Assembly: GCA_016720855.1 (NCBI GenBank)
Contig: JADKJU010000005.1
Location: forward strand, 249,636-313,635
DNA from: Betaproteobacteria bacterium
GTDB lineage: Bacteria; Pseudomonadota; Gammaproteobacteria; Burkholderiales; Usitatibacteraceae
Length of the DNA: 64,000 nucleotides
Reading direction: 5' to 3'
The translations under genes were made by a program, and so were the position numbers. Below, in pieces: positions 7,759 through 62,674 of the stretch. Position 1 is the first letter of the stretch; every line of letters starts with the position of its first letter. The notes under the pieces are model-generated. The model ran no database searches. It was not told where the DNA came from and was given only the letters and a program-made list of their open reading frames with translations.

Positions 7759-7763
7759 GCTCC

Positions 7764-8888: not shown

Positions 8889-8901
8889 GACCTTGTCCTG
8901 C

Positions 8902-10020: not shown

Positions 10021-10100
10021 GGCGGCTCCGCTGTAGTGGCCGTCATCGGGCCGTTGCAAGGACCTGCGGCGTTCCTATCGACCCGGGCGCTTCGGGGCCG

Positions 10101-10931: not shown

Positions 10932-11154
10932 TTTCGTCTTCTCCGTCATCTGGGAACGGGCCGGTCGCCCATTCGGGTTCGTTGCCTGGCACCACGCCAG
11001 TGTATTGCTTCGTGCTTCATGGAACCAATTCGGCATCGGGCGCGGTTGGGTTGGGAGGCGGCGGGGATGGTTGATCGCAATCCCCCATCCCCGGCCTCCT
11101 CCATTCGCCGCCCATCACCCTTCAATGCCATCGGCCGTCCGCCAAGGCGACGCA

Positions 11155-12288: not shown

Positions 12289-12303
12289 GAGCGTCTCCTG
12301 GAA

Positions 12304-14043: not shown

Positions 14044-14053
14044 GGGGTCACCA

Positions 14054-49517: not shown

Positions 49518-49531
49518 TTGATCTCCCTTAA
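49518..49531 (+). promoter_or_regulatory. degenerate FNR/Dnr-type box upstream of the hemerythrin gene
   Basis: TTGATCTCCCTTAA (TTGA-N6-TTAA). TAGTCT at 49554-49559 lies where a -10 element falls if the box is centred at -41.5. Confidence 0.35.
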
Positions 49532-49582
49532 ATTTCCGCGGGACGCACCCCGGTAGTCTGGCTCCTCCATTCTGGAGGGTCG

Positions 49583-50155
49583 ATGCCCGCTTCGCCGACC
49601 GAACAGTCCGGCGCCCCGTCCCCGGGGGACGCCCTCGGCACCTGCTACCGCTGCATGGCGCGAATGCTCGATCGCCTGGAGCGGCTCGCCGCCGAGTTCG
49701 ATTCCTCCTTGCACGAAGCGCCGCCCGCGGATGCTGCGGACCGCGCCGGCGCGCTGGTTGCCGACATCGACGAGGCGCTCGCCGTGCACATGGGGGACGA
49801 GGAAAAGGACATCTTCCCGGCCCTGCTCGCGGCGGCCGATTCCCCCGCCCGCCGGGCCCAGGCCTTCGAACTGGTCTCCTCGCTGCTGGTCGAGCACCAT
49901 GAACTGGCGGAGCTGTGGCACGCGCTTCGCATCCCGCTCCTCGCGCTGGGCAGCGGGGTCGCCGTCAGCCTGCCCGGCGGCACGGCCGCGGACTTCCTCC
50001 AATTCGCGCGGCGCCACCTGGAACGCGGGGAACTCGAGCTCGCCGACCTGATGCGCGTAATCGGCCCGCAAAGGTCACGCGAGATCGGCGTCGCCATGGC
50101 GCAGCGCCACGACGATACGCACCTGCGAATCAAGGACTGCCCGCTGAAGCCCTGA
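49583..50155 (+). CDS. hemerythrin (HHE cation-binding) domain protein
   Basis: 190 aa. HMGDEEKDIFPAL and EHHELAE motifs. GGAGGG Shine-Dalgarno upstream. Confidence 0.75.
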   Translation: MPASPTEQSGAPSPGDALGTCYRCMARMLDRLERLAAEFDSSLHEAPPADAADRAGALVADIDEALAVHMGDEEKDIFPALLAAADSPARRAQAFELVSSLLVEHHELAELWHALRIPLLALGSGVAVSLPGGTAADFLQFARRHLERGELELADLMRVIGPQRSREIGVAMAQRHDDTHLRIKDCPLKP

Positions 50156-50170
50156 ACCGGGGTCGGGCAA

Positions 50171-50193
50171 CTTCCGGTGCCTGGCACCGGAAG
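50171..50193. terminator. 10-bp perfect hairpin between convergent hemerythrin and ctaA genes
   Basis: CTTCCGGTGC-ctg-GCACCGGAAG. There is no U-run. It lies 16 nt after one stop and 5 nt before the other. Confidence 0.45.
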
Positions 50194-50197
50194 GTCG

Positions 50198-51265
50198 TCA
50201 GCGCAGGGTTCTTGCGAGCCAGACGGCCGCAGTGAGGACGACGACCGCGCCGCCCTGGTGGGCGGTGGCGATGCCGACCGGCACGGCCATCAGCAGCGTC
50301 GTGATGCCGAGCACGACCTGGAGCAGCGTGGCACCGGCCAGCGTGCCGGCGGCAAGACGCGATTCCTTGCTTGCGGTGCGCGAGGCGAACACCCGCCACG
50401 CGAGGATCCACGCACCCGCGAGGACGACGAGCGCGAGCGTGCGGTGCACGAACTGCACGGTGGCCATGTTGTAGGCGAAATTGCGCCACCACGGCTCGAT
50501 CAGCAGGATCTCGGGCGGAACCCAGTGGCCGTTCATGAGTGGCCAGGTGTTGTAGGCGAAGCCGGCGCGGATGCCGGCCACGAACCCGCCAGTGAGCGCC
50601 ATCGCGAACACGACGACAGCGAAGGCGAGACCGGCGCGCCGCAGTGCGTCGGTCGCGCCCGACCGCGCCGGGCGCAGGATGCCATGCGCCACCCAGAACA
50701 TGCACGCGTATATGAGCAGCGCCAGGCCCAGGTGTGCCGTGAGCCGGAACTGGCTCACCTGCGGATCGTCCACCAGACCGCTCTTCACCATGTACCACCC
50801 CATCCCGCCCTGCAGCCCGCCCAGCAGCAGGATGCCCGCGAGCTTCCAGCCCAGGGGCCGGTCCAGCCGCCCGCGCAGCCAGAAGTAGAGGAAAGGCACG
50901 AAGAAGGCCACGCCGATGAGTCGCCCGAGCAGCCGATGGAAATACTCCCACCAGAAGATCGACTTGAACCCCTCGAGGCCCATGTCGTGGTTGCGCAGCC
51001 TGAACTCGGGCGTGAGCTTGTACTTGTCGAAGGTCTCGGCCCACTGCGCCTCGTTCAGGGGCGGGAGCGCGCCCACCAGGGGCTTCCACTCGACGATGGA
51101 CAGGCCGGAATGGGTGAGGCGGGTCGCCCCGCCCACCACGACCATCGCAAAGACCAGGGCGCAGCAGGCCAGCAGCCAGAAAGCCACAGCCCGGCGGCCC
51201 TTGCCCGGGGTCGCGTAAGGGGAGGCCGCCGCCGCGGCGATCGGGAGGGCGTTCACGGGGTCCAT
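50198..51265 (-). CDS. ctaA: heme A synthase (COX15/CtaA family, proteobacterial type)
   Basis: I prefer ATG at complement 51263-51265. GGATRLTHSGLSIVEWKP, WWEYFHRLLGR and FVHRTLA are conserved His-bearing helices. Confidence 0.85.
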   Translation of the reverse strand: MDPVNALPIAAAAASPYATPGKGRRAVAFWLLACCALVFAMVVVGGATRLTHSGLSIVEWKPLVGALPPLNEAQWAETFDKYKLTPEFRLRNHDMGLEGFKSIFWWEYFHRLLGRLIGVAFFVPFLYFWLRGRLDRPLGWKLAGILLLGGLQGGMGWYMVKSGLVDDPQVSQFRLTAHLGLALLIYACMFWVAHGILRPARSGATDALRRAGLAFAVVVFAMALTGGFVAGIRAGFAYNTWPLMNGHWVPPEILLIEPWWRNFAYNMATVQFVHRTLALVVLAGAWILAWRVFASRTASKESRLAAGTLAGATLLQVVLGITTLLMAVPVGIATAHQGGAVVVLTAAVWLARTLR

Positions 51266-51319
51266 TTTAGGTGCCGGCTCCACTTCCGGCCATGTCCCGA
51301 AGGCCCAAAAAGGCTTTTC

Positions 51320-51333
51320 TTGAACCCGTTCAA
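51320..51333. promoter_or_regulatory. FNR/Dnr-type box (perfect palindrome) in the ctaA / oxidase divergent region
   Basis: TTGAACCCGTTCAA = TTGA-N6-TCAA. TAGCAT at 51356-51361 has class-II spacing (box centre to predicted start site about 41.5 nt). The first downstream start codon with a Shine-Dalgarno is 51417. Confidence 0.6.
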
Positions 51334-51416
51334 GTTTTTCCGGCGCCCGGCTGCCTAGCATACCCCCGGTGACGTGCCGAACCTCGCGGCCCGCGCCCAT
51401 TCCAGGAGAAGTCCCC

Positions 51417-51602
51417 ATGAGCCAGGTACCCGCCACGCCCGGTGCGGCCGACGATGCCGACGTGCACGACGAACCGATTCCGATGATGCAGCAACTCATC
51501 GACAACCCGTTCCTGCTCCTGTTCCTCGGGGTCGCGATGCCCACCGTCCTCTACATCGTCTGGGGCGTGATGGAAATCGTGGGCATCCCGCTCACCAAGT
51601 GA
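51417..51602 (+). CDS. small single-TM membrane protein heading the oxidase operon
   Basis: 61 aa with AGGAGA Shine-Dalgarno and one hydrophobic helix (FLLLFLGVAMPTVLYIVWGVMEIV). It may be analogous to small accessory subunits of B-type oxidases. Confidence 0.5.
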   Translation: MSQVPATPGAADDADVHDEPIPMMQQLIDNPFLLLFLGVAMPTVLYIVWGVMEIVGIPLTK

Positions 51603-51630
51603 CCGCCGCGACCACCCCGGAGAAGACCCC

Positions 51631-52185
51631 ATGAGCGCCATCCAATCCCCGCCCCAGAGAGTCTGGTGGAAGCAACCCCTCGACCGAGTCGAAGGCACCT
51701 GGATCGTCATCGCCTTCGTGTGGTGCATGGTCATGTTCTTCATGATGCCGTACTGGCACGTCTACGGTAAGCAGAACCTCTCCAACGAGGCCTACCGCTC
51801 CACGCCCGAGGCGTTCCTCGCCAAGGCGCAGGCGATGGTGGACAAGCACACCGTGCGCACCGTCACGGAGCAGAACATTCCCGTCGTGCACCCCGTGCCG
51901 GGCGCCGACGTCTATCTCGTGGCGCGCCTGTGGCAGTGGTGGCCGGTGCTGGAACTCGAGGAAGGCCAGACCTACCGCCTGCACATCATGTCCACCGACT
52001 GGCTGCACGGCTTCTCCCTGCAGCCCGAGAACATCAACATCCAGGTGCATCCCGGCTACGAGCACGTCGTGACCATGACGCCCACCAAGGAAGGCACCTA
52101 CTCGATCATCTGCAACGAGTACTGCGGCATCAACCACCACACGATGGCGAGCAAGCTCTACGTCGTCAAACCGAAGAAGCAGTAG
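51631..52185 (+). CDS. heme-copper oxidase subunit II, single-TM, CuA cupredoxin domain (B-family/ba3-like)
   Basis: 184 aa. The CuA ligands are intact: DWLHGF ... CNEYCGINHHTM (C-x3-C-x3-H-x2-M). Collinear with ba3 subunit II (..DVIHGF....ICNQYCGLGHQNM). Confidence 0.85.
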   Translation: MSAIQSPPQRVWWKQPLDRVEGTWIVIAFVWCMVMFFMMPYWHVYGKQNLSNEAYRSTPEAFLAKAQAMVDKHTVRTVTEQNIPVVHPVPGADVYLVARLWQWWPVLELEEGQTYRLHIMSTDWLHGFSLQPENINIQVHPGYEHVVTMTPTKEGTYSIICNEYCGINHHTMASKLYVVKPKKQ

Positions 52186-52195
52186 GGAGATCGCC

Positions 52196-53926
52196 ATGGC
52201 CGTCAATCGCAATTTCCGCACCTGCCCGTCCACCGGACTCGTCTACCACGAGCCCGCCGAGGCGCTCATCCGCTGGAACGCCGTCGCCGGCGTCGTCTCG
52301 CTCCTCGTGGGCGGCGTCCTGGCCCTGCTGGTCACGCTCACGCGCTGGCCGGCGGTGAGGCTCCTGCCGCCCGACTGGTTCTACCTCGTGCTCACCGCGC
52401 ATGGCCTGGACATGCTGGTGTTCTGGATCATCTTCTTCGAGATCGCGGTGCTCTACTTCGCCGCCTCGACGCTGCTCAAGTGCCGCCTGGCGACGCCGAA
52501 GGTGGCCTGGGTGGCCTTCTGGCTGATGATCGTGGGCGCGATCACGAACAACGTCGCCGTGTTCAAGGGCGATTCCAGCGTCATGTTCACGTCCTACGTG
52601 CCGATGGGGGCTCACCCGCTCTTCTACCTCGGGCTCATCCTCTTCGCCGTGGGCGCGCTCGTCGCCTGCTTCGTGTTCTTCGGCACGCTCGTCGTGGGCA
52701 AGTCGGAGAAGACCTACAACGGCTCGATCCCGCTGGTGACCTTCGGCGCCGTGACCGCGGCGATCATCGCGGTATTCACCATCGCCGCGGGCGCCATCAT
52801 CCTGATACCGACCTTCATGTGGTCCGTGGGGCTGGTCTCGCACATCGACTCCCTCATGTACCGCACGGTCTGGTGGGCGTTCGGGCACTCCTCGCAGCAG
52901 ATCAACGTCGCCGCGCACGTGTCCGTGTGGTACGCGATCGCCGCCATCGTCTTCGGCGCCAAGCCGATGAGCGAGAAGGTGAGCCGCACGGCCTTCGTGC
53001 TCTACATCCTGTTCCTGCAGCTCGCGAGCGCGCACCACCTGCTCGCCGACCCGGGCCTCACCTCCAACTGGAAGATCTTCAACACCAGCTACGCGATGTA
53101 CCTCGCCGTGCTCGCCTCCATGGTGCACGGCCTCACGGTGCCGGGCGCGATCGAGGTGGCGCAGCGCGAGAAGGGCTTCAACAAGGGCCTTTTCGAGTGG
53201 CTGAGGAAGGCCCCGTGGGGCAATCCCAGCTTCTCGGGCATGTTCATGTCGCTCGTGGGCTTCGGCTTCCTGGGCGGGATCTCGGGCGTCATGATGGGCA
53301 CCGAGCAGTTGAACCTCATCATCCACAACACGATCTACGTGCCGGGCCACTTCCACGCGACGGTGGTCGTGGGAACCACGCTCGCCTTCATGGCGCTCAC
53401 GTACTTCCTGATCCCGACCCTTTTCCGGCGCGAACTGATGTTCCCGGCGATGGCCAAGTGGCAGACCTACGTCTATGGCCTGGGCATGATGGGATTCTCG
53501 GTCTTCATGATGGGCGCCGGAACGCTCGGCGTGCCGCGCCGCCATTGGGACATGGCCTTTTCCGGCGCGGTCCTGCCGCACGAGTTCCCCGGCACGGCCT
53601 ATCTCATGATGGGCCTCATGGCGGTCTCGGGCATCCTCGCGACCGTGGGCGGCGCGATGTTCCTCATCAACACGGTGGGGTCGGTGTTCCTCGGCAAGAA
53701 GATCCAGACGCCGGGCTTCGCCCGCGTGTCGGTGAAGGATGGCATGGCCCCGGCGCCGACGCCGGAATTCGCGGCGCCCGCAGTCCCCGCGGTGCACGGC
53801 TCCATCGGCATCGGCGGTTTCGTGGCGCCGGGCACCTTCGTGCTGGCGATGGTGTTCCTCACGTCTTTCATCCTCTACTACTTCGTGAACTGGAAGTACC
53901 TGTCGACCGTCTGGCCGCTGAAGTAG
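52196..53926 (+). CDS. heme-copper oxidase superfamily subunit I, B-family-like but lacking the cross-linked Tyr (NOR-like active site)
   Basis: 576 aa. The His ligands are LTAHG (helix II), WWAFGH (VI), SAHH (VII) and GHFHATV (X). Aligned by eye with Thermus ba3 RTLFWWTGHPIVY, it reads RTVWWAFGHSSQQ, so Gln occupies the Tyr237 position. Confidence 0.85.
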   Translation: MAVNRNFRTCPSTGLVYHEPAEALIRWNAVAGVVSLLVGGVLALLVTLTRWPAVRLLPPDWFYLVLTAHGLDMLVFWIIFFEIAVLYFAASTLLKCRLATPKVAWVAFWLMIVGAITNNVAVFKGDSSVMFTSYVPMGAHPLFYLGLILFAVGALVACFVFFGTLVVGKSEKTYNGSIPLVTFGAVTAAIIAVFTIAAGAIILIPTFMWSVGLVSHIDSLMYRTVWWAFGHSSQQINVAAHVSVWYAIAAIVFGAKPMSEKVSRTAFVLYILFLQLASAHHLLADPGLTSNWKIFNTSYAMYLAVLASMVHGLTVPGAIEVAQREKGFNKGLFEWLRKAPWGNPSFSGMFMSLVGFGFLGGISGVMMGTEQLNLIIHNTIYVPGHFHATVVVGTTLAFMALTYFLIPTLFRRELMFPAMAKWQTYVYGLGMMGFSVFMMGAGTLGVPRRHWDMAFSGAVLPHEFPGTAYLMMGLMAVSGILATVGGAMFLINTVGSVFLGKKIQTPGFARVSVKDGMAPAPTPEFAAPAVPAVHGSIGIGGFVAPGTFVLAMVFLTSFILYYFVNWKYLSTVWPLK

Positions 53927-53949
53927 GCTCGGGCGATCGGGAGACCTCC

Positions 53950-54819
53950 ATGAACAGCCGCGTGAAACTCTTCTTCGACCTGTTCAAGCTCCGCATCGGC
54001 TTCGCGATCGGGCTCACCGCCCTGGCGGGGGCCCTCGCGGTCCCCGGCCGGCAGGCAGGCGCTTGGCAGGTGGCGCTCCTGGTCGCGTGCGTCATCGCCG
54101 CTTCGGCGGCGGCAGGCGCGTTCAACCAGTACGTCGAGCGCGACCTCGATGCGCGCATGGGACGCACGCGCGGCCGCGCCTTCGTCACCGGCCAGCTCAA
54201 GCACGGGCCGTTCTGGCTCGGCGTGATCGGCCTCATGCTGGCGCTTGCCGTGTGCGCTGCGGCGGTCGCCGTGAATGCCGTCGCCGCCCTGTTCGTGTTC
54301 CTGGGCGCCTTCTTCTACGGCGTCGTCTATACGGTCATCCTCAAGCGGCGCACGTGGATGAACATCGTGATCGGGGGCCTCGCCGGCAGCTTCGCGGTGC
54401 TCGCCGGGGCGACCGCCGTCACCCCGGGCGAGATCGGCCCCGTGGCCGCCTCGCTCGCCTGGGTGCTGTTCCTCTGGACGCCGCCGCACTTCTGGAGCCT
54501 CGCCATCGCCTTCCAGGACGACTACCGCGCCGCGGGCGTGCCGATGCTTCCGGTGGTCGTGGGCGAGGCCCGCGCGGCCCGGGTCGTGCTCGGCGGCACC
54601 GTCGTGCTCGTCGCCTCATCCTTCCTGCCGCTCCTCTTCGGCCTGGGCACCCTCTATGCGGCCGGCGCGATCGCCGGCGGACTCCTGTTCCTGCGCGGGG
54701 CCGCGCGCCTTGCGGCCGATCCTTCCCGCACCACGGCGATGGGGAGCTTCCATGCCTCCCTCGCCCAGCTCTCGCTCCTGCTCATCGGCGTGATCGCGGA
54801 CGCGGCCTGGCGGGCCTAG
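53950..54819 (+). CDS. ctaB: protoheme IX farnesyltransferase (heme O synthase)
   Basis: 289 aa UbiA-family protein. NQYVERDLDARMGRTRGR and WTPPHFWSLA motifs. Confidence 0.9.
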   Translation: MNSRVKLFFDLFKLRIGFAIGLTALAGALAVPGRQAGAWQVALLVACVIAASAAAGAFNQYVERDLDARMGRTRGRAFVTGQLKHGPFWLGVIGLMLALAVCAAAVAVNAVAALFVFLGAFFYGVVYTVILKRRTWMNIVIGGLAGSFAVLAGATAVTPGEIGPVAASLAWVLFLWTPPHFWSLAIAFQDDYRAAGVPMLPVVVGEARAARVVLGGTVVLVASSFLPLLFGLGTLYAAGAIAGGLLFLRGAARLAADPSRTTAMGSFHASLAQLSLLLIGVIADAAWRA

Positions 54820-54824
54820 CCCGC

Positions 54825-55658: not shown

Positions 55659-55662
55659 TGCC

Positions 55663-57600
55663 ATGCTCGCCCTCCTGCAAAGGCTCCTGCAGCGGCTCTT
55701 CCTCGGCGCGGAAAGGATCGCCAACGCCATCTTCGGGGAACGCCTCAATCCGCTCTACCACCTCGGGGCGATCAGCTACTACCTGTTCTGGGTCGTGCTC
55801 GCGAGCGGGCTCTACCTCTACGCCTTCTTCGACACGAGCGTGACCGGCGCCTACGCTTCCGTCGAGCGCCTCACCCACGACCAGCGATGGATCGGCGGGA
55901 TCCTCAGGAGCCTGCACCGCTACGCCTCCGACGGCATGGTGCTCACCATGGTGCTGCACCTGACGCGCCACTTCGCCTTCGACCGGCACCGCGGCTTCCG
56001 CTGGTTCTCGTGGGTGAGCGGCGTGATCCTGCTCTGGCTCGTGTACGCCTCGGGCATCAACGGCTACATGCTGCCCTGGGACCAGCTCGCGCAGTTCACC
56101 GTGACCGCCACCGCCGAGTGGTTCGACGCGCTGCCGGTGTTCAACGGCCTGCTCATGCGCAATTTCCTGAGCGCCGACAGCGTGAACGACCGGTTCTTCT
56201 CCCTGCTCTCGTTCCTGCACATCGGCCTGCCGCTGGGCGTGCTGGCGCTCCTGTGGATCCACACGCACCGCGTGCCGCAGGCGAAGACGCTGCCGCCCAA
56301 CCCGCTCATGGTCGCGCTCGGCGCGGCGATGATCGCGCTCTCCGTCGTGAAGCCGGCGCTGAGCCAGCTGCCCGCCGACCTCGCGACGACGGCGTCCTCG
56401 ATCGAGTTCGACTGGTTCTACCTGCCTACCTACGCCCTCATCTACCGCTGGACGCCCGGCGCCGTCTGGGCGCTCGTCGTCCCCCTCACGATTCTCGCCG
56501 TGCTGGCACCGTGGCTGCCGCCGAAGTTCGGGCGGCGCGCCATTCGCGCGTTCCACGTGCTGGCCCATCCCGACAATCGCATCGTCCCGGTGAAGGAGGA
56601 CGAGTCGATCCTCGACGCCTGCCTGCGCGAAGGGCTTCCCATGCCCTTCGATTGCCGCAACGGCGGCTGCGGCGTTTGCAAGTGCACGGTGCTGCACGGG
56701 GAGGTGGAATTGGGCGCCTACCAGGAAAGTGCCCTGTCCACCGCGGACCGCGAGGCCGGCCGCGTGCTCTCCTGCGTGGCGAAGCCCCTTTCCGATGTCG
56801 AGATCGAATACGAACCCACGGACGAATCCGCGCGTCCCGTCACCCTGCATGACGCGCGAGTGGTCTCCATGGACCTGCTCGCGCCGGACGTCATGCGCGT
56901 TCGCCTCGAGGTCGAAGGGGGAGCGAGGATCCCCTTCTACGCCGGCCAGTACATCAACATCCTGCTGGACGACGGCCAGAAGCGCGCCTTCTCGTTCGCC
57001 ACCCCTCCGCACGAGCCCGGCCCGATCGAGCTGCACATCCGCCGCATCGAAGGCGGGCGATTCACCACGCACGTCTTCACCGCCATGAAGGTCGGCGATC
57101 ATATTCGCTTCGAGGGACCGGTGGGCTCCTTCTTCCTGCGCGAGGACGGGGACAAGCCCGTCATCTTCGTGGCCGGGGCCACCGGATTCGCACCCGTGAA
57201 GAGCATGGTGGAGCACGCGCTGCATGCCGGCGTGACCCGGCCCATGGTGCTCTACTGGGGCACGCGCAACCTCGCCGACATGTACCTTCGCGAACTTCCC
57301 GAGCGCTGGGCGAAGGAGCATGCGAACTTCCGCTTCGTTCCCGTGCTCTCCGATGCGGTGCCCGGCGACGGCTGGGAGGGCAGGAAGGGCCTTGTCCACG
57401 AGGCGATCCTCGCCGACTATCCCGACCTCGGGGGGCATCGCATCTACGCCTGCGGCTCGGTGAAGATGGTCGAGGCCGCGCAACCTGCGTTCGCCAAGCA
57501 GGGGCTCTCGCCCGACGACTGCTTTTCCGATGCGTTCAAGCTCGCACCGCGCATCCATTCGAAGGACGCCGATCTCGTGCGCCTGGGGGGGCGCCCATGA
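55663..57600 (+). CDS. fusion protein: di-heme cytochrome b (bc1/b6-type N-domain) + plant-type [2Fe-2S] ferredoxin + FAD/NAD(P)H ferredoxin-reductase domain
   Basis: 645 aa. Two His pairs are each spaced 14 residues apart (SLHRYASDGMVLTMVLH and FLHIGLPLGVLALLWIH). The 2Fe-2S motif is CRNGGCGVCKC...SCVA. FNR motifs are RAFSFA, FVAGATGFAP and YACGS. Confidence 0.85.
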   Translation: MLALLQRLLQRLFLGAERIANAIFGERLNPLYHLGAISYYLFWVVLASGLYLYAFFDTSVTGAYASVERLTHDQRWIGGILRSLHRYASDGMVLTMVLHLTRHFAFDRHRGFRWFSWVSGVILLWLVYASGINGYMLPWDQLAQFTVTATAEWFDALPVFNGLLMRNFLSADSVNDRFFSLLSFLHIGLPLGVLALLWIHTHRVPQAKTLPPNPLMVALGAAMIALSVVKPALSQLPADLATTASSIEFDWFYLPTYALIYRWTPGAVWALVVPLTILAVLAPWLPPKFGRRAIRAFHVLAHPDNRIVPVKEDESILDACLREGLPMPFDCRNGGCGVCKCTVLHGEVELGAYQESALSTADREAGRVLSCVAKPLSDVEIEYEPTDESARPVTLHDARVVSMDLLAPDVMRVRLEVEGGARIPFYAGQYINILLDDGQKRAFSFATPPHEPGPIELHIRRIEGGRFTTHVFTAMKVGDHIRFEGPVGSFFLREDGDKPVIFVAGATGFAPVKSMVEHALHAGVTRPMVLYWGTRNLADMYLRELPERWAKEHANFRFVPVLSDAVPGDGWEGRKGLVHEAILADYPDLGGHRIYACGSVKMVEAAQPAFAKQGLSPDDCFSDAFKLAPRIHSKDADLVRLGGRP

Positions 57601-58097
57601 ACCGCCCGCTGCGCTACCTCCTGCAGGGCCTCCTCTATGGCGCCTTCGCGGCCACCCTGGGCTATTTCTCGACCTCGCCGGCGTTCGAGCCGCTTCCCCC
57701 GGGCCACGCGCTCATCCGCCTGTCGCTCAACCACGCCGGACAACGCAAGGTGGCCTGCCGCACGCGCACGCCCGAGGAACTCGCGAAACTGGCGCCCAAC
57801 ATGCGGGCAGCGGAAGACTGCTCGCGCGAGCGCGCGCCCGTGCTGGTGAAAGTGGAGCTCAATGGCAAGTCCGTGGCCGACATCGTCGCGGCGCCGACGG
57901 GCCTGTCGCGCGACGGCGCGTCGGTGGCCTACCGGCGCATACCCGTCGTCGCGGGCACGTACCTCGTGAAGGTGAGCATCGCGGACAACGCGGCGGGACT
58001 TTTCGACCGCGTGCGTGAGGAGGAAGTGCGTCTCGAGCCGGGCCGCGTGCTGGTGATCGACTTCGAACCCGGCAAGGGCGGGATCGTGTTGCGCTAG
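57597..58097 (+). CDS. 166-aa membrane-anchored hypothetical protein
   Basis: ATGA overlap with the preceding gene and 2 nt from the next. One N-terminal TM (YLLQGLLYGAFAATLGYF). Strong GC3 coding signal. No motif recognised. Confidence 0.6.
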   Translation: MNRPLRYLLQGLLYGAFAATLGYFSTSPAFEPLPPGHALIRLSLNHAGQRKVACRTRTPEELAKLAPNMRAAEDCSRERAPVLVKVELNGKSVADIVAAPTGLSRDGASVAYRRIPVVAGTYLVKVSIADNAAGLFDRVREEEVRLEPGRVLVIDFEPGKGGIVLR

Positions 58098-58099
58098 CC

Positions 58100-59677
58100 A
58101 TGAAAGCCGCCTCCCTGTCGCTTCCCCGCCCCGGCCGTGCCGCGCTCGTCGTGGAGCGGGTGGACGCGCTCTTCGACCGCGCCTTCGGCCAGCGCCTGAA
58201 CCCGTGGCGGCATCTCGGCGCGCTCGGCTTCCTGTTCTTCTGGATCTGCTGCGCCTCGGGCATCTGGATCTACGTCGGCTACGACACCAGCACCCTCGGC
58301 GCGCACGAGAGCCTGGCCGCGATGGACCGCAACGAGTGGCCGCTTGGCGCGCTGGCGCGCGCGCTGCACCGCTACAGCGCCGACGCCCTCGTGGTGGTGA
58401 CCGCGCTTCACCTCGCGCGGGAACTGGCGCGCCGGCACTACGCGGCGTTCCGCCTCTACGCGTGGCTCACCGGGCTCGTCGTCCTGGTGCTGATGTTCGC
58501 CGCCGGCATCGGCGGCTACTGGCTGCCCTGGGACCAGCTCGCGCAGTGGAGCCTCACGGCCACCACGGAATGGTTCGACGCGCTGCCGGTCTTCGACGGC
58601 GCCCTGTCGCGCAACGTCATCGCCGGCAGCCAGGTGAACGACCGCTTCTTCTCCCTCCTCATCTTCCTGCACATCGGCCTGCCGCTCGCCATGCTCGGCG
58701 CGATGTGGGCGCACGTGCAGCGCGTGAGCCCCGCACGCACCAATCCGCCGGGCGCGCTGGGGTGGGGATCCCTCGCCATGCTGGCGGCGCTTTGCCTCGC
58801 CAAGCCCGTCTCGCTGATGCCTGCGGCCGACCTGGCTTTCCTGCCCGCCAGGATCCCCGTCGACTGGTTCTATCTCTTCCCGCACCCGCTCATGGCCTGG
58901 CTCGGACCCGACGGGCTGTGGTGGGCGACGGCCGCCTTTCTCGCGGGCCTCGCAACCCTGCCGTGGGCCACGCGCGTCGCGCGCGCACCGGCGGCCCGCG
59001 TGAGCCTGGCCAACTGCAACGGCTGTGCGCGCTGCTTCGCGGACTGCCCGTACGACGCGGTGGTGATGGTGGCGCGCACCGACGCGCGTCCGCATCCGCG
59101 TCAGGCACAGGTGAACCCTGACCTGTGCGCGGGCTGCGGCATCTGCACCGGCGCCTGCCCATCGTCCACGCCGTTCCGCCGGGACGAGGCGCTGGTCACC
59201 GGCATCGACATGCCCTCCATGGCCATCGGCGAAATGCGCGACCGGCTGGAGGCGCGCACGGCTGCCCTCGTGGGCCGCCCGCGCATCGTGGTCTTCGGTT
59301 GCCGCTGGGGAGCGGATAGCGAAAGCCTCGCAGGGCCCTCCACCGCCGCGATCGAATTCGTCTGCGGCGCGATGCTGCCCCCCTCGTTCGTGGAATACGC
59401 GCTGCGCGCAGGGGCCGACGGCGTGCTCGTCGCCAGTTGCCGCGAAGGCGACTGCGAGTTCCGCACCGGCGACCAGCTCATCGCTGCGCGGCTGGGCGCC
59501 GAGCGCAAGCCTGCATTGCGATCGAGCGTGGCGCGTGAGCGCGTCCGGCTGGTCCCCGCCGGGCGCACCGATACCGGATTCCTGCGCACGCAGCTCGATG
59601 CCTTCCGCGCGGACCTCGAACGACTCGAATCCCGCCATGCCTCACCCCCCAAACGCCAGGAGAAGCACCATGGCTAG
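58100..59677 (+). CDS. fusion protein: di-heme cytochrome b + 2x[4Fe-4S] ferredoxin + MvhD/FlpD-like (hydrogenase iron-sulfur subunit) domain
   Basis: 525 aa. The cytochrome b part is paralogous to 55663-56500 (ALHRYSADALVVVTALH and FLHIGLPLAMLGAMWAH). Cluster motifs are CNGCARCFADCP and CAGCGICTGACP. The MvhD-like segment is IVVFGCRWGA...FVCGAMLPPSFVEYALRAGADGVLVASCREGDCEF. Confidence 0.8.
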   Translation: MKAASLSLPRPGRAALVVERVDALFDRAFGQRLNPWRHLGALGFLFFWICCASGIWIYVGYDTSTLGAHESLAAMDRNEWPLGALARALHRYSADALVVVTALHLARELARRHYAAFRLYAWLTGLVVLVLMFAAGIGGYWLPWDQLAQWSLTATTEWFDALPVFDGALSRNVIAGSQVNDRFFSLLIFLHIGLPLAMLGAMWAHVQRVSPARTNPPGALGWGSLAMLAALCLAKPVSLMPAADLAFLPARIPVDWFYLFPHPLMAWLGPDGLWWATAAFLAGLATLPWATRVARAPAARVSLANCNGCARCFADCPYDAVVMVARTDARPHPRQAQVNPDLCAGCGICTGACPSSTPFRRDEALVTGIDMPSMAIGEMRDRLEARTAALVGRPRIVVFGCRWGADSESLAGPSTAAIEFVCGAMLPPSFVEYALRAGADGVLVASCREGDCEFRTGDQLIAARLGAERKPALRSSVARERVRLVPAGRTDTGFLRTQLDAFRADLERLESRHASPPKRQEKHHG

Positions 59678-61097
59678 CCTTCACTCCGCCCATGCCCACT
59701 CCCTCGCTTCGGCTGCCGACCAATCGGCGAGCGGCACCACATTCGGGATCACCGTGGGGCGCGACGCCTCCGCGCGCCTCGCGACCGGCTGGCTCGCGCT
59801 CGGCATCGCCGCGCTCGTCGGATCCGGCGTGTTCTCGCTCCTGCTCGTGCTCGCGCGCACGCCGGGGCTCAAGGAAATCTTCCCCGTCGCCGATTTCTTC
59901 CAGGTGGCGCTCGTCGCGCACGTGGACCTGTCGGTCCTCGTCTGGTTCCTTGCCTTCGCGGGCGTGCTGTGGAGCCTTGCGTGCGATGCCCGCGGCATCG
60001 CCGTGGGCTGGGTCGCCCTGGCGCTGTGCGCCGCCGGGACGCTGGCGCTTTGCGTGGCCCCGCTCGCGGGGAACGCGGTGCCGGTGCTGGCCAACTACAT
60101 CCCCGTCATCGACAACGCCGCGTTCCTGGGCGGTCTTGCCGCCATCGGCGCCGGCGTCGCGCTTGCGGCGACGCGCACGTTCTGGGCGGCTCGCGCCTTT
60201 GCCCCGACCCTCGACGGCGAGTCGGCGCTACGCTGGGGAATCCTCGGATCGGCCGTCGCGACGGCCATTGCCCTGGCCGCCTTCGGCTGGTCGTGGATGG
60301 AGCTCTCGCCGCACCTCGAGCGCAAGGCCTACTACGAGCTGCTCTTCTGGGGCGGCGGCCACGTGCTGCAGTTCACGTGGACCCTGCTCATGCTCGCCGG
60401 CTGGCTGTGGCTTGCGAGCGCTCTGGGGCTGCGCCCGGCACTTTCGCCTCGCGTGACGCTTCTCGTCTTCACGATCGCGCTGGCCTGCGTGTTCGTCACC
60501 CCCGTCATCTACATCGCCCACCCGGTCGCCTCGGTGGAGCACCACAAGCTGCAAACCTGGCTCATGCGTTTCGGCGGCGGGCTCGCGATCCCGCCGGTTC
60601 TCCTCGCGCTCCTGTGGGCGATGCGCAGCCTGCCATCCCTCGACGCGCAGAAGCGCCCGATCTTCGGGGCGCTCGCGGCCTCCATCGGGCTCTTCGCGGC
60701 CGGCGGCCTCATCGGCTTTGCCATCAGCGGGGCCAACGTGAAGATCCCGGCGCACTATCACGGCTGCATCGTCGGGGTGACGCTCGCGTTCATGGGACTG
60801 GCCTACCACCTCCTGCCGCAGCTCGGTTTCGCCGCGCCGCGCTCGCGTCTGGCCGCGTGGCAGCCCTGGCTCTACGGCGGAGGGCAGCTCGCGCACATCG
60901 TGGGCCTGGTGTGGTCGGGCGGATACGGCGTTGAACGCAAGGTGGCGGGCGCCGCGCAGGTGCTGCGCACGCCGCAGGAGGTGGCGGGCATGGGGCTCAT
61001 GGGCCTGGGCGGCCTGGTAGCGATCCTGGGCGGCCTCGCGTTCGTGATCGTCGTGATCGGCGCCCTGCGTCGTCCCGCCGGCGCCGAGACCGCCTGA
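59670..61097 (+). CDS. highly divergent heme-copper-oxidase subunit-I homologue (12 TM) retaining all six canonical His ligands
   Basis: I prefer ATG 59670 (AGGAGA Shine-Dalgarno). 475 aa. His84 (LVAHVD), His231 (LLFWGGGH), His291/292 (VEHH) and His362/364 (AHYHG) sit at nearly the same positions as ba3 H72, H233, H282/283 and H384/386. There is no Tyr at His+4 (HVLQF). Confidence 0.65.
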   Translation: MASLHSAHAHSLASAADQSASGTTFGITVGRDASARLATGWLALGIAALVGSGVFSLLLVLARTPGLKEIFPVADFFQVALVAHVDLSVLVWFLAFAGVLWSLACDARGIAVGWVALALCAAGTLALCVAPLAGNAVPVLANYIPVIDNAAFLGGLAAIGAGVALAATRTFWAARAFAPTLDGESALRWGILGSAVATAIALAAFGWSWMELSPHLERKAYYELLFWGGGHVLQFTWTLLMLAGWLWLASALGLRPALSPRVTLLVFTIALACVFVTPVIYIAHPVASVEHHKLQTWLMRFGGGLAIPPVLLALLWAMRSLPSLDAQKRPIFGALAASIGLFAAGGLIGFAISGANVKIPAHYHGCIVGVTLAFMGLAYHLLPQLGFAAPRSRLAAWQPWLYGGGQLAHIVGLVWSGGYGVERKVAGAAQVLRTPQEVAGMGLMGLGGLVAILGGLAFVIVVIGALRRPAGAETA

Positions 61098-61108
61098 GCG
61101 CACCGGTC

Positions 61109-61909
61109 ATGACGCGCGAAGAGCGCATGCTTTCCGCGACCGCGGCCGCATGCGCGGCGCTGGTCTTCATCATCGTCGCTGCCAGCGCCTGGCTGAGGCT
61201 CGTGGCCGTGCCCTGTCCGCCGGCAGGGTGCGAGGGATTCACGCTCACCGATGCCGTGCGCCTCGCGCACCGCGTGGCCGCCATGGGCGTGACGGTCCTG
61301 GCCCTCGTCATCATCGCGCTGGCGTGGAAGGCGCCCCGGCGCTGGGGCCTGCGCATCGCCGCGGCCATCCTCTTCGGCCTCGTGGCCGCGCTCGCCGTCA
61401 TCGGCCGCCGGTCGGCGGGAGCCGCCCCGCCCGAGGTGATGCTCGCCAACCTGCTGGGGGGCCTCACGCTTCTTGCGGTCTCCGTGGCCCTGGCCGTCGC
61501 CCCGCGCCAGCCGCGGGGACGGATCGCACTCCCCTTCGCTGCCGCAGCGTTGCTGTTCGCCGTGTCCACAGGGACGGGGGGCCTGCTGGTCATGGCACCG
61601 CCGGCCGACACCGCGTCGCTGGGCCTCGCCCATCGCGCCCTTTCCTGGGCCACCCTGGCGGGCTGGGGGCTGCTGGCGTTCGCAAGCGCACCCCCGGCCG
61701 GTGTACGTGCGGCAACGCGCCTCGCCGCCGCGCTCATGGCGCTTCAGGTCCTGCTCGCGCTGTCGTTGCCCGCCGGGCCACTGGCGCGTTGGCTTCACAA
61801 CCTGCTCACGTCCGCGGCGCTTCTCCCCGTCATTGCTGCAGCGCTGTCCTGCCGGGCCCCCTTGCGCCCCGATCCCGCGCACCCCGAACGCCTGCCTGCC
61901 GGATCCTGA
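61109..61909 (+). CDS. polytopic membrane protein, CtaA/COX15-like (putative)
   Basis: 266 aa with about 8 hydrophobic segments. A Cys pair lies in the first loop (CPPAGC), followed by AHRVAAMG. Later helices carry His (LAHRAL, WLHNLL). The family call is by pattern only. Confidence 0.4.
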   Translation: MTREERMLSATAAACAALVFIIVAASAWLRLVAVPCPPAGCEGFTLTDAVRLAHRVAAMGVTVLALVIIALAWKAPRRWGLRIAAAILFGLVAALAVIGRRSAGAAPPEVMLANLLGGLTLLAVSVALAVAPRQPRGRIALPFAAAALLFAVSTGTGGLLVMAPPADTASLGLAHRALSWATLAGWGLLAFASAPPAGVRAATRLAAALMALQVLLALSLPAGPLARWLHNLLTSAALLPVIAAALSCRAPLRPDPAHPERLPAGS

Positions 61910-61960
61910 GCGGCAGCCGGGTTATCATGGGCGCTCCCAACGCCCTGTGCCCATCCCTTC

Positions 61961-62674
61961 ATGCAGCCCGGAGAACCGCGCTCACGCGGGCCCGACATCC
62001 CGGTCGAGCAATTCCTCGTCAACCTGCCGCTCTTCAGCGATCTCACGCCCGAGGAGATCCAGCGCGTCGCGGGCGGCACTCGCCGCATCTACGCGACCAA
62101 GGGCGAGACGCTTTTCACGCGAGGCGACCGTTGCGAGGGCTTCCACGTCGTCCTCTACGGGCAGGTGAAGCTCTTCGTCACTTCACCCCAGGGCTCCGAG
62201 AAGGTGATCGAGATCATGGGCCCGGGCATCTCGTTCGGCGAGGCGGTCCTCTTCATGGACATCCCCTACCCCGTCTCGGCGCAGGCGCTCAAGGATTCGC
62301 TCCTGCTGCACGTCTCCAAGAGCCTCGTCTCGGAGGAGATCGTGCGCGATCCCCGCTTCGCGAGGCGGCTGCTGGCCGGCATGTCGAAGAAGCTTCACCA
62401 GCTCATCCACGACGTGGAGGCCTACTCGCTTCGCTCGGGGCTGGAGCGCGTGATCGGCTACCTGCTGCGCGACGACGCCATTTCCGACGGCTCCGCGCGC
62501 TCGACGAGCGTGACGCTGCCCGCCAACAAGATGATCGTGGCCTCGCGCCTCAATCTCACGCCGGAGTACTTCTCGCGCATCCTGCACGAGCTGGCCGGCG
62601 CGGGGCTGATCGTGATGGAGGGCCGTTCGGTTTCGGTCCCCGACATCGAGCGCCTGCGTACCTACACCGGCTGA
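61961..62674 (+). CDS. Crp/Fnr-family transcriptional regulator, Dnr/NnrR type (no FNR Cys cluster)
   Basis: 237 aa with a cNMP-like beta-barrel and a C-terminal HTH carrying the E--SR recognition motif (TPEYFSRIL), which reads TTGA-N6-TCAA boxes. The N-terminus lacks the Cys-x2-Cys-x5-Cys of FNR. Confidence 0.8.
   Translation: MQPGEPRSRGPDIPVEQFLVNLPLFSDLTPEEIQRVAGGTRRIYATKGETLFTRGDRCEGFHVVLYGQVKLFVTSPQGSEKVIEIMGPGISFGEAVLFMDIPYPVSAQALKDSLLLHVSKSLVSEEIVRDPRFARRLLAGMSKKLHQLIHDVEAYSLRSGLERVIGYLLRDDAISDGSARSTSVTLPANKMIVASRLNLTPEYFSRILHELAGAGLIVMEGRSVSVPDIERLRTYTG

What the first reader, a model, noticed from the sequence alone, without database searches (positions are those of the whole stretch)
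49518..62674. Candidate undescribed respiratory/detoxification system: twin Tyr-less HCO enzymes with self-contained NAD(P)H and ferredoxin-type electron input
Taken together, the 13-kb block encodes the following components. Catalytic: a hemerythrin and a small TM protein, then a CuA subunit II and a Tyr-less subunit I, and a second divergent HCO. Cofactor and metal maturation: heme O synthase, SCO1, CtaA and a CtaA-like protein. Electron input and unknowns: cytochrome b with [2Fe-2S]-FAD-NAD(P)H domains, an unknown TM protein, and cytochrome b with 2x[4Fe-4S]-MvhD. Control: a Dnr-type regulator with matching boxes. Nearly all junctions on the plus strand are under 30 nt or overlapping. There is no cytochrome c, Rieske/bc1 or quinol-oxidase signature. 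I hypothesise a membrane complex that draws electrons from cytoplasmic NAD(P)H or a low-potential donor through dedicated di-heme b stems. It would reduce NO (or scavenge O2) at NOR-like heme-copper sites, independently of the main respiratory chain. Individual parts belong to known families, but I do not know of this combination being described.
Basis: inference. Interest (0 to 1): 0.85.

Follow-up and report, generated by a model that had tools for sequence, protein, structure and literature searches.

The report
eNOR nitric-oxide reductase operon with accessories
This block is a betaproteobacterial operon for eNOR, a known nitric-oxide reductase that makes the greenhouse gas N2O, and it also carries a widespread, uncharacterised set of membrane redox proteins that probably feed electrons to the enzyme or help build its heme A cofactor.

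Summary
The genes are real and the domain calls hold. One correction: ctaA lies on the minus strand.

- **First oxidase.** The first heme-copper oxidase pair is eNOR. It derives from the B family, has a CuA subunit II, and its active-site Tyr is replaced by an invariant Gln. This family is already shown to reduce NO.
- **Conservation.** The block is conserved as a unit. In 48 complete loci from other species, eNOR I, SCO1 and the 166-aa protein occur in 48, and both cytochrome b fusions in 46. An FNR/Dnr box sits at the promoter. In cultured Usitatibacter palustris the cluster abuts nirS.
- **Second oxidase.** It is not a twin enzyme. Across its family both heme sites are invariant, but two of the three copper-site histidines are not conserved. 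It occurs fused to heme O synthase, CtaA-like proteins, TPR domains or cytochrome b. Where eNOR is absent it sits beside ctaB/ctaA.
- **Prior description.** A May 2026 preprint on Ferrigenium straubiae describes the same operon and proposes a different role.

The NAD(P)H-to-NO idea remains possible but untested. I favour electron supply across the membrane for biogenesis of the heme-A enzyme. This is a known kind of operon with an interesting unknown module.

The parts
49583..50155 (+). Hemerythrin-domain protein (190 aa). Peripheral: not part of the conserved core.
   Evidence: PF01814 E 3e-10. Weak match to the RIC di-iron repair protein. At 40% identity or more it is present in only 1 of 48 full loci. 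Hemerythrin genes recur near the cluster in L003, L071 and L085.
50198..51265 (-). Canonical heme A synthase CtaA/COX15 (355 aa), transcribed divergently from the operon.
   Evidence: PF02628 E 8e-112. GC3 favours the minus-strand frame. The same divergent ctaA is seen in L001, L003-L006 and others.
51320..51333 (.). FNR/Dnr-type palindrome TTGAACCCGTTCAA in the ctaA/operon intergenic region, about 90 nt upstream of the first operon ATG.
   Evidence: 2 matches in the window against 0.13 expected. 23 of 54 related loci have TTGA-N6-TCAA within 500 nt upstream of subunit II. Background is 0.06 per kb.
51417..51602 (+). 61-aa single-TM protein. Probably a small eNOR subunit, in the same position as ba3 subunit IIa (inference).
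   Evidence: Homologue found directly upstream of subunit II in 54 of 54 loci. Motif: MQQLLDNPFLLLFLGV..P.V.Y..WGV.
51631..52185 (+). eNOR subunit II, a CuA cupredoxin (184 aa).
   Evidence: PF00116. CuA ligands H126, C161, C165, H169 and M172 are invariant in 55 of 55.
52196..53926 (+). eNOR subunit I (576 aa), the catalytic NO reductase subunit.
   Evidence: Best solved relatives are T. thermophilus ba3 subunit I, E about 1e-49. ba3 Y237 aligns with Q235. H69, H231, Q235, H280, H281, H385 and H387 are conserved in 55-56 of 56. Motif GHSSQQ is present in 23 of 24 of a distant clade.
53950..54819 (+). Heme O synthase CtaB (289 aa).
   Evidence: TIGR01473 E 4e-71, above cut-off. Present in 45 of 48 loci.
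54825..55658 (+). SCO1/SenC copper chaperone (277 aa).
   Evidence: PF02630. Present in 48 of 48 loci.
55663..57600 (+). cbFNR: six-TM di-heme cytochrome b fused to a [2Fe-2S] ferredoxin and an FAD/NAD(P)H reductase (645 aa).
   Evidence: PF00033, PF00111, PF00970 and PF00175. BenC-like, E 4e-61. H85, H99, H186 and H200 are conserved in 62-63 of 63; C331, C336, C339 and C371 are invariant. The D-W of the PEWY-equivalent is invariant. Present in 46 of 48 loci.
57597..58097 (+). u166: one N-terminal TM helix plus a beta-sandwich domain with two invariant Cys (166 aa). No known family.
   Evidence: No Pfam or NCBIfam hit. AF2 pLDDT 89. No significant PDB fold match. Not related to subunit II. Present in 48 of 48 loci.
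58100..59677 (+). cbFeS: a paralogous di-heme cytochrome b fused to 2x[4Fe-4S] and an MvhD/FlpD domain (525 aa).
   Evidence: PF00033, Fer4 families and PF02662. H90, H104, H191 and H205 are conserved in 72-73 of 73; two CxxCxxCxxxC motifs and four MvhD Cys are invariant. Its membrane domain is 40% identical to that of cbFNR. Present in 46 of 48 loci. Overlaps the next gene by 8 nt.
59670..61097 (+). HCO2: an HCO-fold paralogue with a degenerate CuB site, called 'eNOR scaffold protein' in the F. straubiae preprint (475 aa).
   Evidence: PF00115 E 2e-16. AF2 pLDDT 81; best fold match is ba3 subunit I, TM 0.67-0.72. hhalign to eNOR I gives 99.8% probability. Heme ligands are invariant but helix-VII metal ligands are not. 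Found in at least 591 GTDB species.
61109..61909 (+). Divergent CtaA-like membrane protein (266 aa).
   Evidence: Remote similarity only. A CtaA-family or CtaA-like gene directly follows HCO2, or lies divergently upstream, in most loci. HCO2-CtaA-like fusions exist: P0077 and P0096.
61961..62674 (+). Crp/Fnr-family regulator without an FNR Cys cluster (Dnr/NnrR-like). It carries an E-x-x-S-R recognition motif.
   Evidence: PF00027 and PF13545. Only sub-threshold NCBIfam matches. A homologue lies within the locus in 21 of 48.

Best explanation
The block is the betaproteobacterial form of the eNOR operon.

**Shown**
- An FNR/Dnr-box promoter drives one long plus-strand operon.
- Its catalytic part is eNOR: a small TM subunit, a CuA subunit II, and a B-family-derived subunit I whose cross-linked Tyr is replaced by Gln.
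- Heme O synthase, heme A synthase and SCO1 supply its heme A-type and copper cofactors.
- A conserved accessory set travels with it: two paralogous di-heme cytochrome b proteins, the 166-aa protein, HCO2 and a CtaA-like protein.

**From the literature**
- eNOR reduces 2 NO to N2O. Electrons enter at CuA from the periplasmic side.

**Inferred mechanism of the accessory set**
- cbFNR oxidises cytoplasmic NAD(P)H (FAD, then [2Fe-2S]).
- cbFeS takes electrons from an unknown cytoplasmic donor through its MvhD-type cluster and two [4Fe-4S] clusters.
- Each passes electrons through its N-side and P-side b hemes across the membrane. This works like NOX/FRE-type reductases.
- HCO2 is not a second NO/O2 reductase. 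It is a two-heme HCO paralogue with a degenerate copper site that works with heme O/A synthases.
- I think the most likely sink for the trans-membrane electrons is HCO2 with the CtaA-like protein. That would mean the reductant-requiring heme O to heme A conversion, or heme insertion, needed to build eNOR at low O2.
- Direct reduction of the eNOR CuA site is the second choice.
For: **eNOR identity**
- Tyr to Gln, all six His ligands, and ba3 as the closest solved relative.
- CuA ligands invariant.
- Family definition and demonstrated NO reductase activity.

**Regulation and context**
- FNR/Dnr box.
- nirS, NnrS and Crp/Fnr genes adjacent in U. palustris.

**Co-conservation**
- 46-48 of 48 loci, in two gene orders.
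- 12 of 18 loci in a clade sharing about 45% identity.

**Cofactor ligands and topology of the cytochrome b fusions**
-.

**HCO2 is not catalytic in the usual sense and is tied to heme O/A synthesis**
- Helix-VII metal ligands are not conserved, while H84, H231, H362 and H364 are.
- It is found fused to heme O synthase (P0499), to CtaA-like domains (P0077, P0096), to TPR domains and to cytochrome b (P0361).
- A CtaA-family gene is adjacent in most loci.
- Where eNOR is absent, HCO2 still sits beside ctaB/ctaA or an A-family, heme-A oxidase operon.

**Expression in F. straubiae**
- All accessory proteins were detected under nitrate-reducing growth.
- Their transcripts are 1-2 orders of magnitude below eNOR I/II, similar to the assembly factor Sco1.

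**Established knowledge, not tested here**
- Eukaryotic heme A synthase Cox15 needs ferredoxin and ferredoxin reductase.
- The bacterial electron donor for CtaA is unknown.
Against: - No experiment links any accessory protein to heme A.
- In the distant clade cbFeS tracks eNOR (12 of 12) rather than HCO2 alone (0 of 6). This fits an electron-donor role for the terminal enzyme equally well.
- In the betaproteobacterial clade His231, Glu290 and His291 of HCO2 are 98-100% conserved and could still bind a metal.
- Each fusion architecture rests on one to five cluster representatives. The cytochrome b-HCO2 example comes from a contig edge.
- The units of the proteome values are not stated, and n = 1.
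- The invariant D-W at the Qo-equivalent position suggests a quinone may be involved.
- I could not examine the eNOR operons of R. marinus or Magnetospirillum.
Confidence: 0.55

Rival explanations
1. A self-contained NAD(P)H (and ferredoxin):NO or O2 oxidoreductase. The two cytochrome b fusions carry cytoplasmic electrons to the P side and reduce eNOR (via CuA) and HCO2. Both are catalytic, and the bc1/cytochrome c chain is bypassed.
For: - A complete cofactor chain from NAD(P)H to a P-side heme.
- No cytochrome c, cupredoxin or Rieske gene in the operon or the window.
- Tight, overlapping junctions.
- cbFeS co-occurs with a terminal HCO in every case seen.
- A cytochrome b-HCO2 fusion exists.
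- All the proteins are made during denitrifying growth of F. straubiae.
Against: - HCO2's copper site is not conserved across the family.
- HCO2 is fused or adjacent to heme O/A synthases.
- Accessory transcripts are far below those of eNOR I/II.
- Some genomes lack one or other cytochrome b fusion.
- eNOR was assayed with ascorbate/TMPD as artificial donor, and I recall the purified enzymes having two subunits (not verified here).
- Burning NAD(P)H directly forfeits energy conservation (inference).
Confidence: 0.2
2. Quinol:NAD(P)+ oxidoreductase, or reverse electron flow. The cytochrome b-FNR fusion oxidises quinol and reduces NAD(P)+, perhaps in a supercomplex that uses the energy of NO reduction. 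The F. straubiae preprint proposes this. It echoes the 'novel cytochrome b/b6 quinol reductase' proposed for Accumulibacter.
For: - The proposal is made.
- The cytochrome b modules keep an invariant D-W at the PEWY (Qo) position, and homology extends through helix F.
- The carriers include autotrophs that need reverse electron flow.
Against: - Inference from bioenergetics: moving electrons from a P-side quinol site to the cytoplasmic head runs against both the redox span (about +90 to -320 mV) and the membrane potential.
- No Rieske-type high-potential partner is encoded.
- BenC-type reductases normally run from NAD(P)H to the acceptor.
- Homology of the Accumulibacter protein to this one was not verified.
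Confidence: 0.08
3. Quinone-linked donor module. The cytochrome b fusions act as NAD(P)H:quinone reductases or quinol-oxidising reductases that replace bc1 as the feeder of eNOR. The system would then belong to the ordinary quinone-based chain, not an independent one.
For: - Closest solved relatives are cytochrome b6/b.
- Invariant D-W at the Qo-equivalent position.
- Architecturally like QmoC-type FeS + di-heme b quinone-interacting subunits (my own knowledge).
Against: - There is no evidence for quinone binding.
- There is no Rieske or cytochrome c1 equivalent.
- It does not explain HCO2 or its link to heme O/A synthases.
Confidence: 0.1

Closest known systems
eNOR family of heme-copper NO reductases (Hemp & Gennis 2008; Murali et al. 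2024, PMC11214002), characterised from Rhodothermus marinus
   Same: - B-family-derived subunit I with Gln in place of the cross-linked Tyr.
- CuA subunit II.
- Operon with heme O synthase and a CtaA homologue.
- Denitrification context.
   Different: - Nothing in the catalytic pair differs in the features I could test.
- The accessory cytochrome b fusions, the 166-aa protein and HCO2 are not discussed in the parts of that paper I could read.
eNOR operon of Ferrigenium straubiae (bioRxiv 10.64898/2026.01.22.701106)
   Same: - Same gene set: eNOR II, eNOR I, heme o synthase, Sco1, cytochrome b + FeS + FAD + NADH protein, hypothetical protein, COX1-like 'eNOR scaffold protein', cytochrome b + FeS/F420-hydrogenase-delta protein.
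- The proteins were detected under denitrifying growth.
   Different: - That operon has a PerM gene inserted and no CtaA inside it.
- The authors call the cytochrome b genes 'rather unusual'. Here they are near-universal (46 of 48 loci).
- The authors propose quinol:NAD+ reduction.
Thermus thermophilus cytochrome ba3 (B-family O2 reductase)
   Same: - Closest solved structure for both eNOR I (E about 1e-49) and HCO2 (TM about 0.7).
- Operon order is small subunit, II, I.
   Different: - ba3 has the His-Tyr cofactor and reduces O2.
- eNOR I has Gln at that position.
- HCO2 has Phe and lacks a conserved copper site and a subunit II.
Cox15 with ferredoxin Yah1 and ferredoxin reductase Arh1 (mitochondrial heme A synthesis)
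   Same: - A ferredoxin plus an NAD(P)H-ferredoxin reductase is encoded together with heme O and heme A synthases.
- This is a 'works like' comparison only.
   Different: - Here the ferredoxin and reductase are fused to a di-heme cytochrome b.
- No functional link to CtaA has been shown.
NOX/FRE/STEAP-type transmembrane reductases and QmoC/HdrE-type FeS + di-heme b subunits
   Same: - A cytoplasmic flavin/FeS head is wired to two stacked b hemes that span the membrane.
   Different: - The heme domain here is of the cytochrome b6/bc1 type, not the ferric-reductase or NarI type.
- Not members of those families.
gNOR and NOD (HCO families with altered metal ligands)
   Same: - Like these families, HCO2 departs from the three-His copper/iron site.
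   Different: - gNOR has a defined His-to-Asp change and a cupredoxin subunit.
- NOD is qNOR-derived.
- HCO2 is B-family-like, has no subunit II, and its helix-VII ligands vary freely.

Membership tests
eNOR (subunit I, 52196-53926) | HCO fold with the six canonical His ligands | tested here: met
   H69, H231, H280, H281, H385 and H387 align with the ba3 ligands and are conserved in 55-56 of 56.
eNOR (subunit I) | Active-site Tyr replaced by Gln (PMC8756737 Table A4) | tested here: met
   ba3 Y237 aligns with Q235, which is invariant in 56 of 56. Motif GHSSQQ is present in 23 of 24 of a distant clade.
eNOR | Related to the B family, with a CuA-containing subunit II | tested here: met
   Best PDB relatives are ba3. 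CuA ligands are invariant in 55 of 55.
eNOR | Conserved K-channel-like proton path | not tested
   Residue-level mapping was not done. Dataset S1 of PMC11214002 is not held.
eNOR | Placement in the eNOR clade with R. marinus and M. magnetotacticum sequences | not tested
   No reference sequences could be fetched. Indirect support: the homologous F. straubiae operon was classified as eNOR by its authors.
eNOR | NO reductase activity and heme As cofactor | not testable with these tools
   Requires biochemistry.
O2-reducing HCO (A/B/C families) | Cross-linked His-Tyr cofactor | tested here: not met
   The position holds Gln235 in subunit I and Phe235 in HCO2.
sNOR / bNOR | Asn at the Tyr position | tested here: not met
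   The residue is Gln, not Asn.
cNOR / qNOR | C-family-related subunit, FeB with three His plus Glu, cytochrome c subunit or quinol site | tested here: not met
   B-family affinity. No CxxCH anywhere in the block.
Catalytic heme-copper enzyme (applied to HCO2, 59670-61097) | Three conserved CuB/FeB His ligands | tested here: not met
   H231 is invariant. Among 40 family representatives, positions 290/291/292 are E 45% / H 30% / H 12%. Within the close clade, E290 is 98%, H291 99% and H292 44%.
HCO superfamily fold (HCO2) | 12-TM fold with low-spin and high-spin heme ligands | tested here: met
   AF2 pTM 0.85. Foldseek best match is ba3. H84 and H362 are invariant and H364 is 39 of 40.
Cytochrome b of bc1/b6f (membrane domains of cbFNR and cbFeS) | Four His ligands for two b hemes on helices B and D | tested here: met
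   Conserved in 62-63 of 63 and 72-73 of 73. b6 is the best PDB match, E 9e-23.
bc1/b6f complex | Rieske Fe-S and cytochrome c1/f partners; PEWY Qo motif | tested here: not met
   No Rieske or c-type motif. The PEWY position reads x-D-W-[FY], with D-W invariant.
BenC/FNR-type ferredoxin-NAD(P)H reductase (C-terminus of cbFNR) | Plant-type [2Fe-2S] Cys4, plus FAD_binding_6 and NAD_binding_1 domains | tested here: met
   Pfam domains. BenC E 4e-61, below the equivalog cut-off. The Cys are invariant.
MvhD/FlpD (C-terminus of cbFeS) | FlpD domain with conserved Cys | tested here: met
   PF02662 E 1e-13. C401, C422, C447 and C452 are invariant.
Heme A synthase CtaA/COX15 (applied to 61109-61909) | Significant match to PF02628 | tested here: inconclusive
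   Pfam E 1.4. Transitive similarity to a bona fide CtaA, E 2e-4. The minus-strand gene 50198-51265 is a clear member.
Dnr/NnrR-type Crp/Fnr regulator | cNMP-binding and HTH_Crp_2 domains, no FNR Cys cluster, TTGA-N6-TCAA target | tested here: inconclusive
   The domains and a single Cys are seen, and a box is present. No curated model reaches its cut-off. NO sensing cannot be tested here.

The most novel reading that the evidence does not exclude
HCO2, the CtaA-like protein, the 166-aa protein and the two cytochrome b fusions form a previously unrecognised bacterial machine. It carries NAD(P)H/FeS electrons across the membrane to make or insert heme A(s) into heme-A-dependent HCOs at very low O2. 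That would make it the missing bacterial counterpart of the Cox15-ferredoxin-ferredoxin reductase system. HCO2 would be a copper-less heme-handling descendant of an oxidase. An even bolder version, that HCO2 supplies O2 from NO for heme A synthase, is not excluded but has no direct support.
Probability: 0.3. Interest if true: 0.8.

Novelty: new member of a known kind. Interest (0 to 1): 0.6.

Why it matters
**N2O budgets.** eNOR-type enzymes produce N2O and are routinely mis-annotated as cytochrome oxidases. Here the annotation pipelines call both HCOs 'cbb3-type cytochrome c oxidase subunit I'. Recognising them changes N2O and denitrification budgets for wastewater, soil and groundwater Betaproteobacteria.

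**A widespread unknown.** The accessory module is found in at least 591 species genomes. HCO2 has 769 cluster representatives at the 50% level. Its function is unknown.

**What solving it would tell us.**
- If it feeds NAD(P)H electrons to NO reduction, it is a new, non-energy-conserving route for NO detoxification.
- If it supports heme A formation, it answers two open questions: who reduces bacterial heme A synthase, and how a heme-A enzyme is built under near-anoxic denitrifying conditions.

**Tractability.** Several cultured carriers make the question testable: Usitatibacter palustris, Comamonas granuli, Ramlibacter cellulosilyticus, Quisquiliibacterium transsilvanicum and Noviherbaspirillum sp.

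Tried and rejected
1. **sNOR.** My first guess, from the subunit II / I / senC order. Rejected because the Tyr position holds Gln, not Asn.
2. **Plus-strand ORF 50177-51358.** Rejected by GC3 and Pfam in favour of the minus-strand ctaA.
3. **PDB sequence search with the HCO2 profile.** No hit. Fold search was needed instead.
4. **The 166-aa protein.** No Pfam or NCBIfam hit, no significant fold match, and no profile similarity to subunit II. The idea that it is a degenerate cupredoxin subunit II is unsupported.
5. **Apparent HCO2-CtaA-like 'fusions' in my stop-to-stop ORF scan.** Rejected as open-frame artefacts of high-GC DNA.
6. **Plasmid search for HCO2.** No match.
7. **Verifying the Accumulibacter 'novel cytochrome b/b6'.** I tried to confirm it is a cbFNR homologue lying in an eNOR operon. 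Only secondary citations were found, so this stays unverified.
8. **Contexts of distant HCO2 representatives.** Most came from contigs too short to be informative.
9. **Supplementary data of PMC11214002.** Not held.

Full report
**1. What is in the sequence**

The window is 64-73% G+C, so I chose reading frames by third-position G+C and by family searches.

| Coordinates | Strand | Product |
|---|---|---|
| 49583-50155 | + | hemerythrin |
| 50198-51265 | minus | canonical heme A synthase CtaA |
| 51417-51602 | + | 61-aa single-TM protein |
| 51631-52185 | + | CuA subunit II |
| 52196-53926 | + | HCO subunit I |
| 53950-54819 | + | heme O synthase |
| 54825-55658 | + | SCO1 |
| 55663-57600 | + | cytochrome b-[2Fe-2S]-FAD-NAD(P)H fusion (cbFNR) |
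| 57597-58097 | + | 166-aa protein with no family (u166) |
| 58100-59677 | + | cytochrome b-2x[4Fe-4S]-MvhD fusion (cbFeS) |
| 59670-61097 | + | second HCO (HCO2) |
| 61109-61909 | + | 266-aa membrane protein |
| 61961-62674 | + | Crp/Fnr regulator |

- The plus-strand genes from 51417 to 61909 are separated by -8 to +28 nt.
- No gene in the block, or in the whole window, has a CxxCH or Rieske motif.
- The rest of the window encodes transporters and housekeeping enzymes.
- The u166 protein is 100% identical to a protein of a Betaproteobacteria MAG, locus tag IPP91_19250.

**2. The first HCO is eNOR, a known family**

- Subunit I is most similar among solved structures to T. thermophilus ba3, with E about 1e-49.
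- In that alignment all six metal and heme His ligands are kept, and ba3 Tyr237 aligns with Gln235.
- Gln235 and the six His are conserved in 55-56 of 56 relatives. The motif GHSSQQ recurs in 23 of 24 members of a more distant environmental clade.
- Gln at this position is the published signature of eNOR. It distinguishes eNOR from sNOR/bNOR (Asn), cNOR/qNOR (Glu) and O2 reductases (Tyr).
- eNOR from Rhodothermus marinus reduces NO and not O2. It contains heme As, and many eNOR operons carry a CtaA homologue.
- Subunit II keeps all CuA ligands in 55 of 55.
- The 61-aa ORF is conserved directly upstream of subunit II in 54 of 54 loci. By position it resembles the small subunit IIa of ba3. That is my inference.

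**3. Regulation and context**

- One perfect TTGA-N6-TCAA palindrome lies at 51320-51333, between ctaA and the operon. The window has 2 such sites against 0.13 expected.
- 23 of 54 related loci have such a box within 500 nt upstream of subunit II, against a background of 0.06 per kb.
- The regulator has a single Cys, so it is not an O2-sensing FNR. No curated model names it.
- In the cultured Usitatibacter palustris the cluster lies back-to-back with nirS, a hemerythrin and a cytochrome c. It is followed by a Crp/Fnr regulator gene and then NnrS.

**4. Is the set conserved as a unit?**

Yes.

- I scored 48 loci that had full flanks:

| Component | Loci (of 48) |
|---|---|
| eNOR I | 48 |
| SCO1 | 48 |
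| u166 | 48 |
| eNOR II | 47 |
| cbFNR | 46 |
| cbFeS | 46 |
| CtaB | 45 |
| Crp/Fnr regulator | 21 |

- The hemerythrin and the PAS kinase are present only in the nearest relatives.
- Two gene orders dominate:
  - ...SCO-cbFNR-u166-cbFeS-HCO2 (22 loci, as in this window);
  - ...SCO-cbFeS-u166-HCO2-cbFNR (17 loci).
- A CtaA-family or CtaA-like gene follows HCO2, or lies divergently upstream, in most loci.
- A clade whose HCO2 is only about 45% identical shows the same core in 12 of 18 full loci. cbFeS is present in all 12, u166 in 10 and cbFNR in 4.

**5. The second HCO is not a twin enzyme**

- Its AF2 model (pLDDT 81, pTM 0.85) matches ba3 subunit I best, with TM 0.67-0.72.
- A profile-profile alignment to eNOR I is significant, at 99.8% probability.
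- The low-spin and high-spin heme ligands (H84, H362, H364) and H231 are invariant or nearly so.
- The Tyr position holds Phe.
- The helix-VII pair that supplies two copper ligands aligns with Glu290-His291.
  - In the close betaproteobacterial clade, E290 and H291 are 98-99% conserved. H292 is only 44% conserved.
  - Across 40 representatives of the wider family, none of the three positions is conserved. The wider family has 769 clusters at E 1e-30 or better.
- The six-His appearance in this one copy therefore misled a single-sequence reading.
- Fusions found in the family:
  - heme O synthase (P0499, TIGR01473 E 3e-74);
  - CtaA-like domains (P0077, P0096);
  - TPR domains (five representatives);
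  - cytochrome b (P0361).
- Where eNOR is absent, HCO2 still sits beside ctaB and/or a ctaA-family gene. This holds in 6 of 6 loci of the distant clade.
- In L011 and L096, HCO2 lies next to an ordinary A-family oxidase operon whose subunit I has the HPAVY Tyr.
- The common denominator is heme-A-dependent enzymes and heme O/A synthases.

**6. The cytochrome b fusions**

- Their membrane domains are paralogues, 40% identical, hhalign E 6e-101.
- They are closest to cytochrome b6 and keep all four heme His ligands.
- Two further helices follow helix D, which places the soluble heads in the cytoplasm.
- They retain an invariant D-W at the position of the Qo-site PEWY motif.
- All [2Fe-2S], [4Fe-4S] and MvhD Cys are invariant.
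- The FNR head is most like BenC-type reductases. As far as I know these run from NAD(P)H to the acceptor.
- Thermodynamic inference: electron flow from NAD(P)H outward is favoured by both redox potential and membrane potential. The reverse, quinol to NAD(P)+, is opposed by both.

**7. Prior description**

- A May 2026 preprint on Ferrigenium straubiae reports the same operon. It makes these points:
  - it names HCO2 'eNOR scaffold protein of unknown function';
  - it calls the II-I-heme o synthase-Sco1-scaffold arrangement common;
  - it calls the two cytochrome b genes unusual;
  - it proposes a quinol:NAD+ oxidoreductase;
  - it detects all of these proteins under nitrate-reducing Fe(II)-oxidising growth.
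- In its data the accessory transcripts are about 50-600 TPM, against about 2,000-15,000 for eNOR I/II. The proteome values of the cytochrome b proteins are close to that of Sco1.
- An 'unusual cytochrome b/b6 / quinol reductase' has long been cited for Accumulibacter. From memory it has the cbFNR architecture, but I could not verify homology.

**8. Verdict**

- It is wrong that the system is undescribed, and wrong that it contains two equivalent enzymes.
- I favour, at moderate confidence, a role for HCO2, the CtaA-like protein and the cytochrome b modules in supplying reductant for building the heme-A enzyme.
- Direct NAD(P)H-driven NO reduction is the main rival.
- Neither role has been tested experimentally.

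Noticed in passing
window 62685-63854 (+): The histidine kinase after the Crp/Fnr gene has a LOV-type PAS domain (motif GTNCRMVQGPGTD). It matches blue-light-activated histidine kinase and YtvA models, E about 1e-37. In the close relative L004 it is followed by a response regulator and an HD-domain protein. A light/redox flavin sensor next to an NO reductase operon is unexpected.
   Followed up: partly
L011 420-10043 and L096 9899-16972: In two loci HCO2 sits beside an A-family cytochrome oxidase operon, not eNOR. In L011 cbFeS and a CtaA-like gene accompany it. In that operon subunit I has the canonical HPAVY Tyr.
   Followed up: yes
proteins P0371, P0422, P0439, P0478, P0507: A recurrent architecture fuses an HCO2-like domain to C-terminal TPR repeats resembling the CcmH/CycH cytochrome-biogenesis TPR domain. 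The only contig I looked up for this architecture (P0371, L088) was too short to show neighbours.
   Followed up: partly
L090 10001-11404: A 39%-identical HCO2-like gene stands alone, with no HCO operon. A tetrapyrrole-methylase family gene lies next to it and a CtaA gene about 5 kb away. A prophage-like segment (integrase, Zot, ParE) lies just downstream.
   Followed up: no
L085 (Usitatibacter palustris CP053073) 6208-9137 and L003 12423-12635: DUF2249 / TusA-DUF2249 small proteins and hemerythrins recur at the edges of the cluster, next to nirS or the CtaA-like gene. Their role is unknown.
   Followed up: no
window 3028-4245 (+): DDE transposase (DUF4372 + DDE_Tnp_1), an insertion sequence far from the block.
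   Followed up: no
window 268-281: The only other TTGA-N6-TCAA site in the window (TTGAGCGCCTTCAA). It overlaps the minus-strand ORF 252-767.
   Followed up: no
window 52196-53926 and 59670-61097, and homologues: NCBI's pipeline names both the eNOR subunit I and HCO2 homologues 'cbb3-type cytochrome c oxidase subunit I', and JGI calls them 'cytochrome c oxidase subunit 1'. This is a systematic mis-annotation that hides NO reductases.
   Followed up: partly
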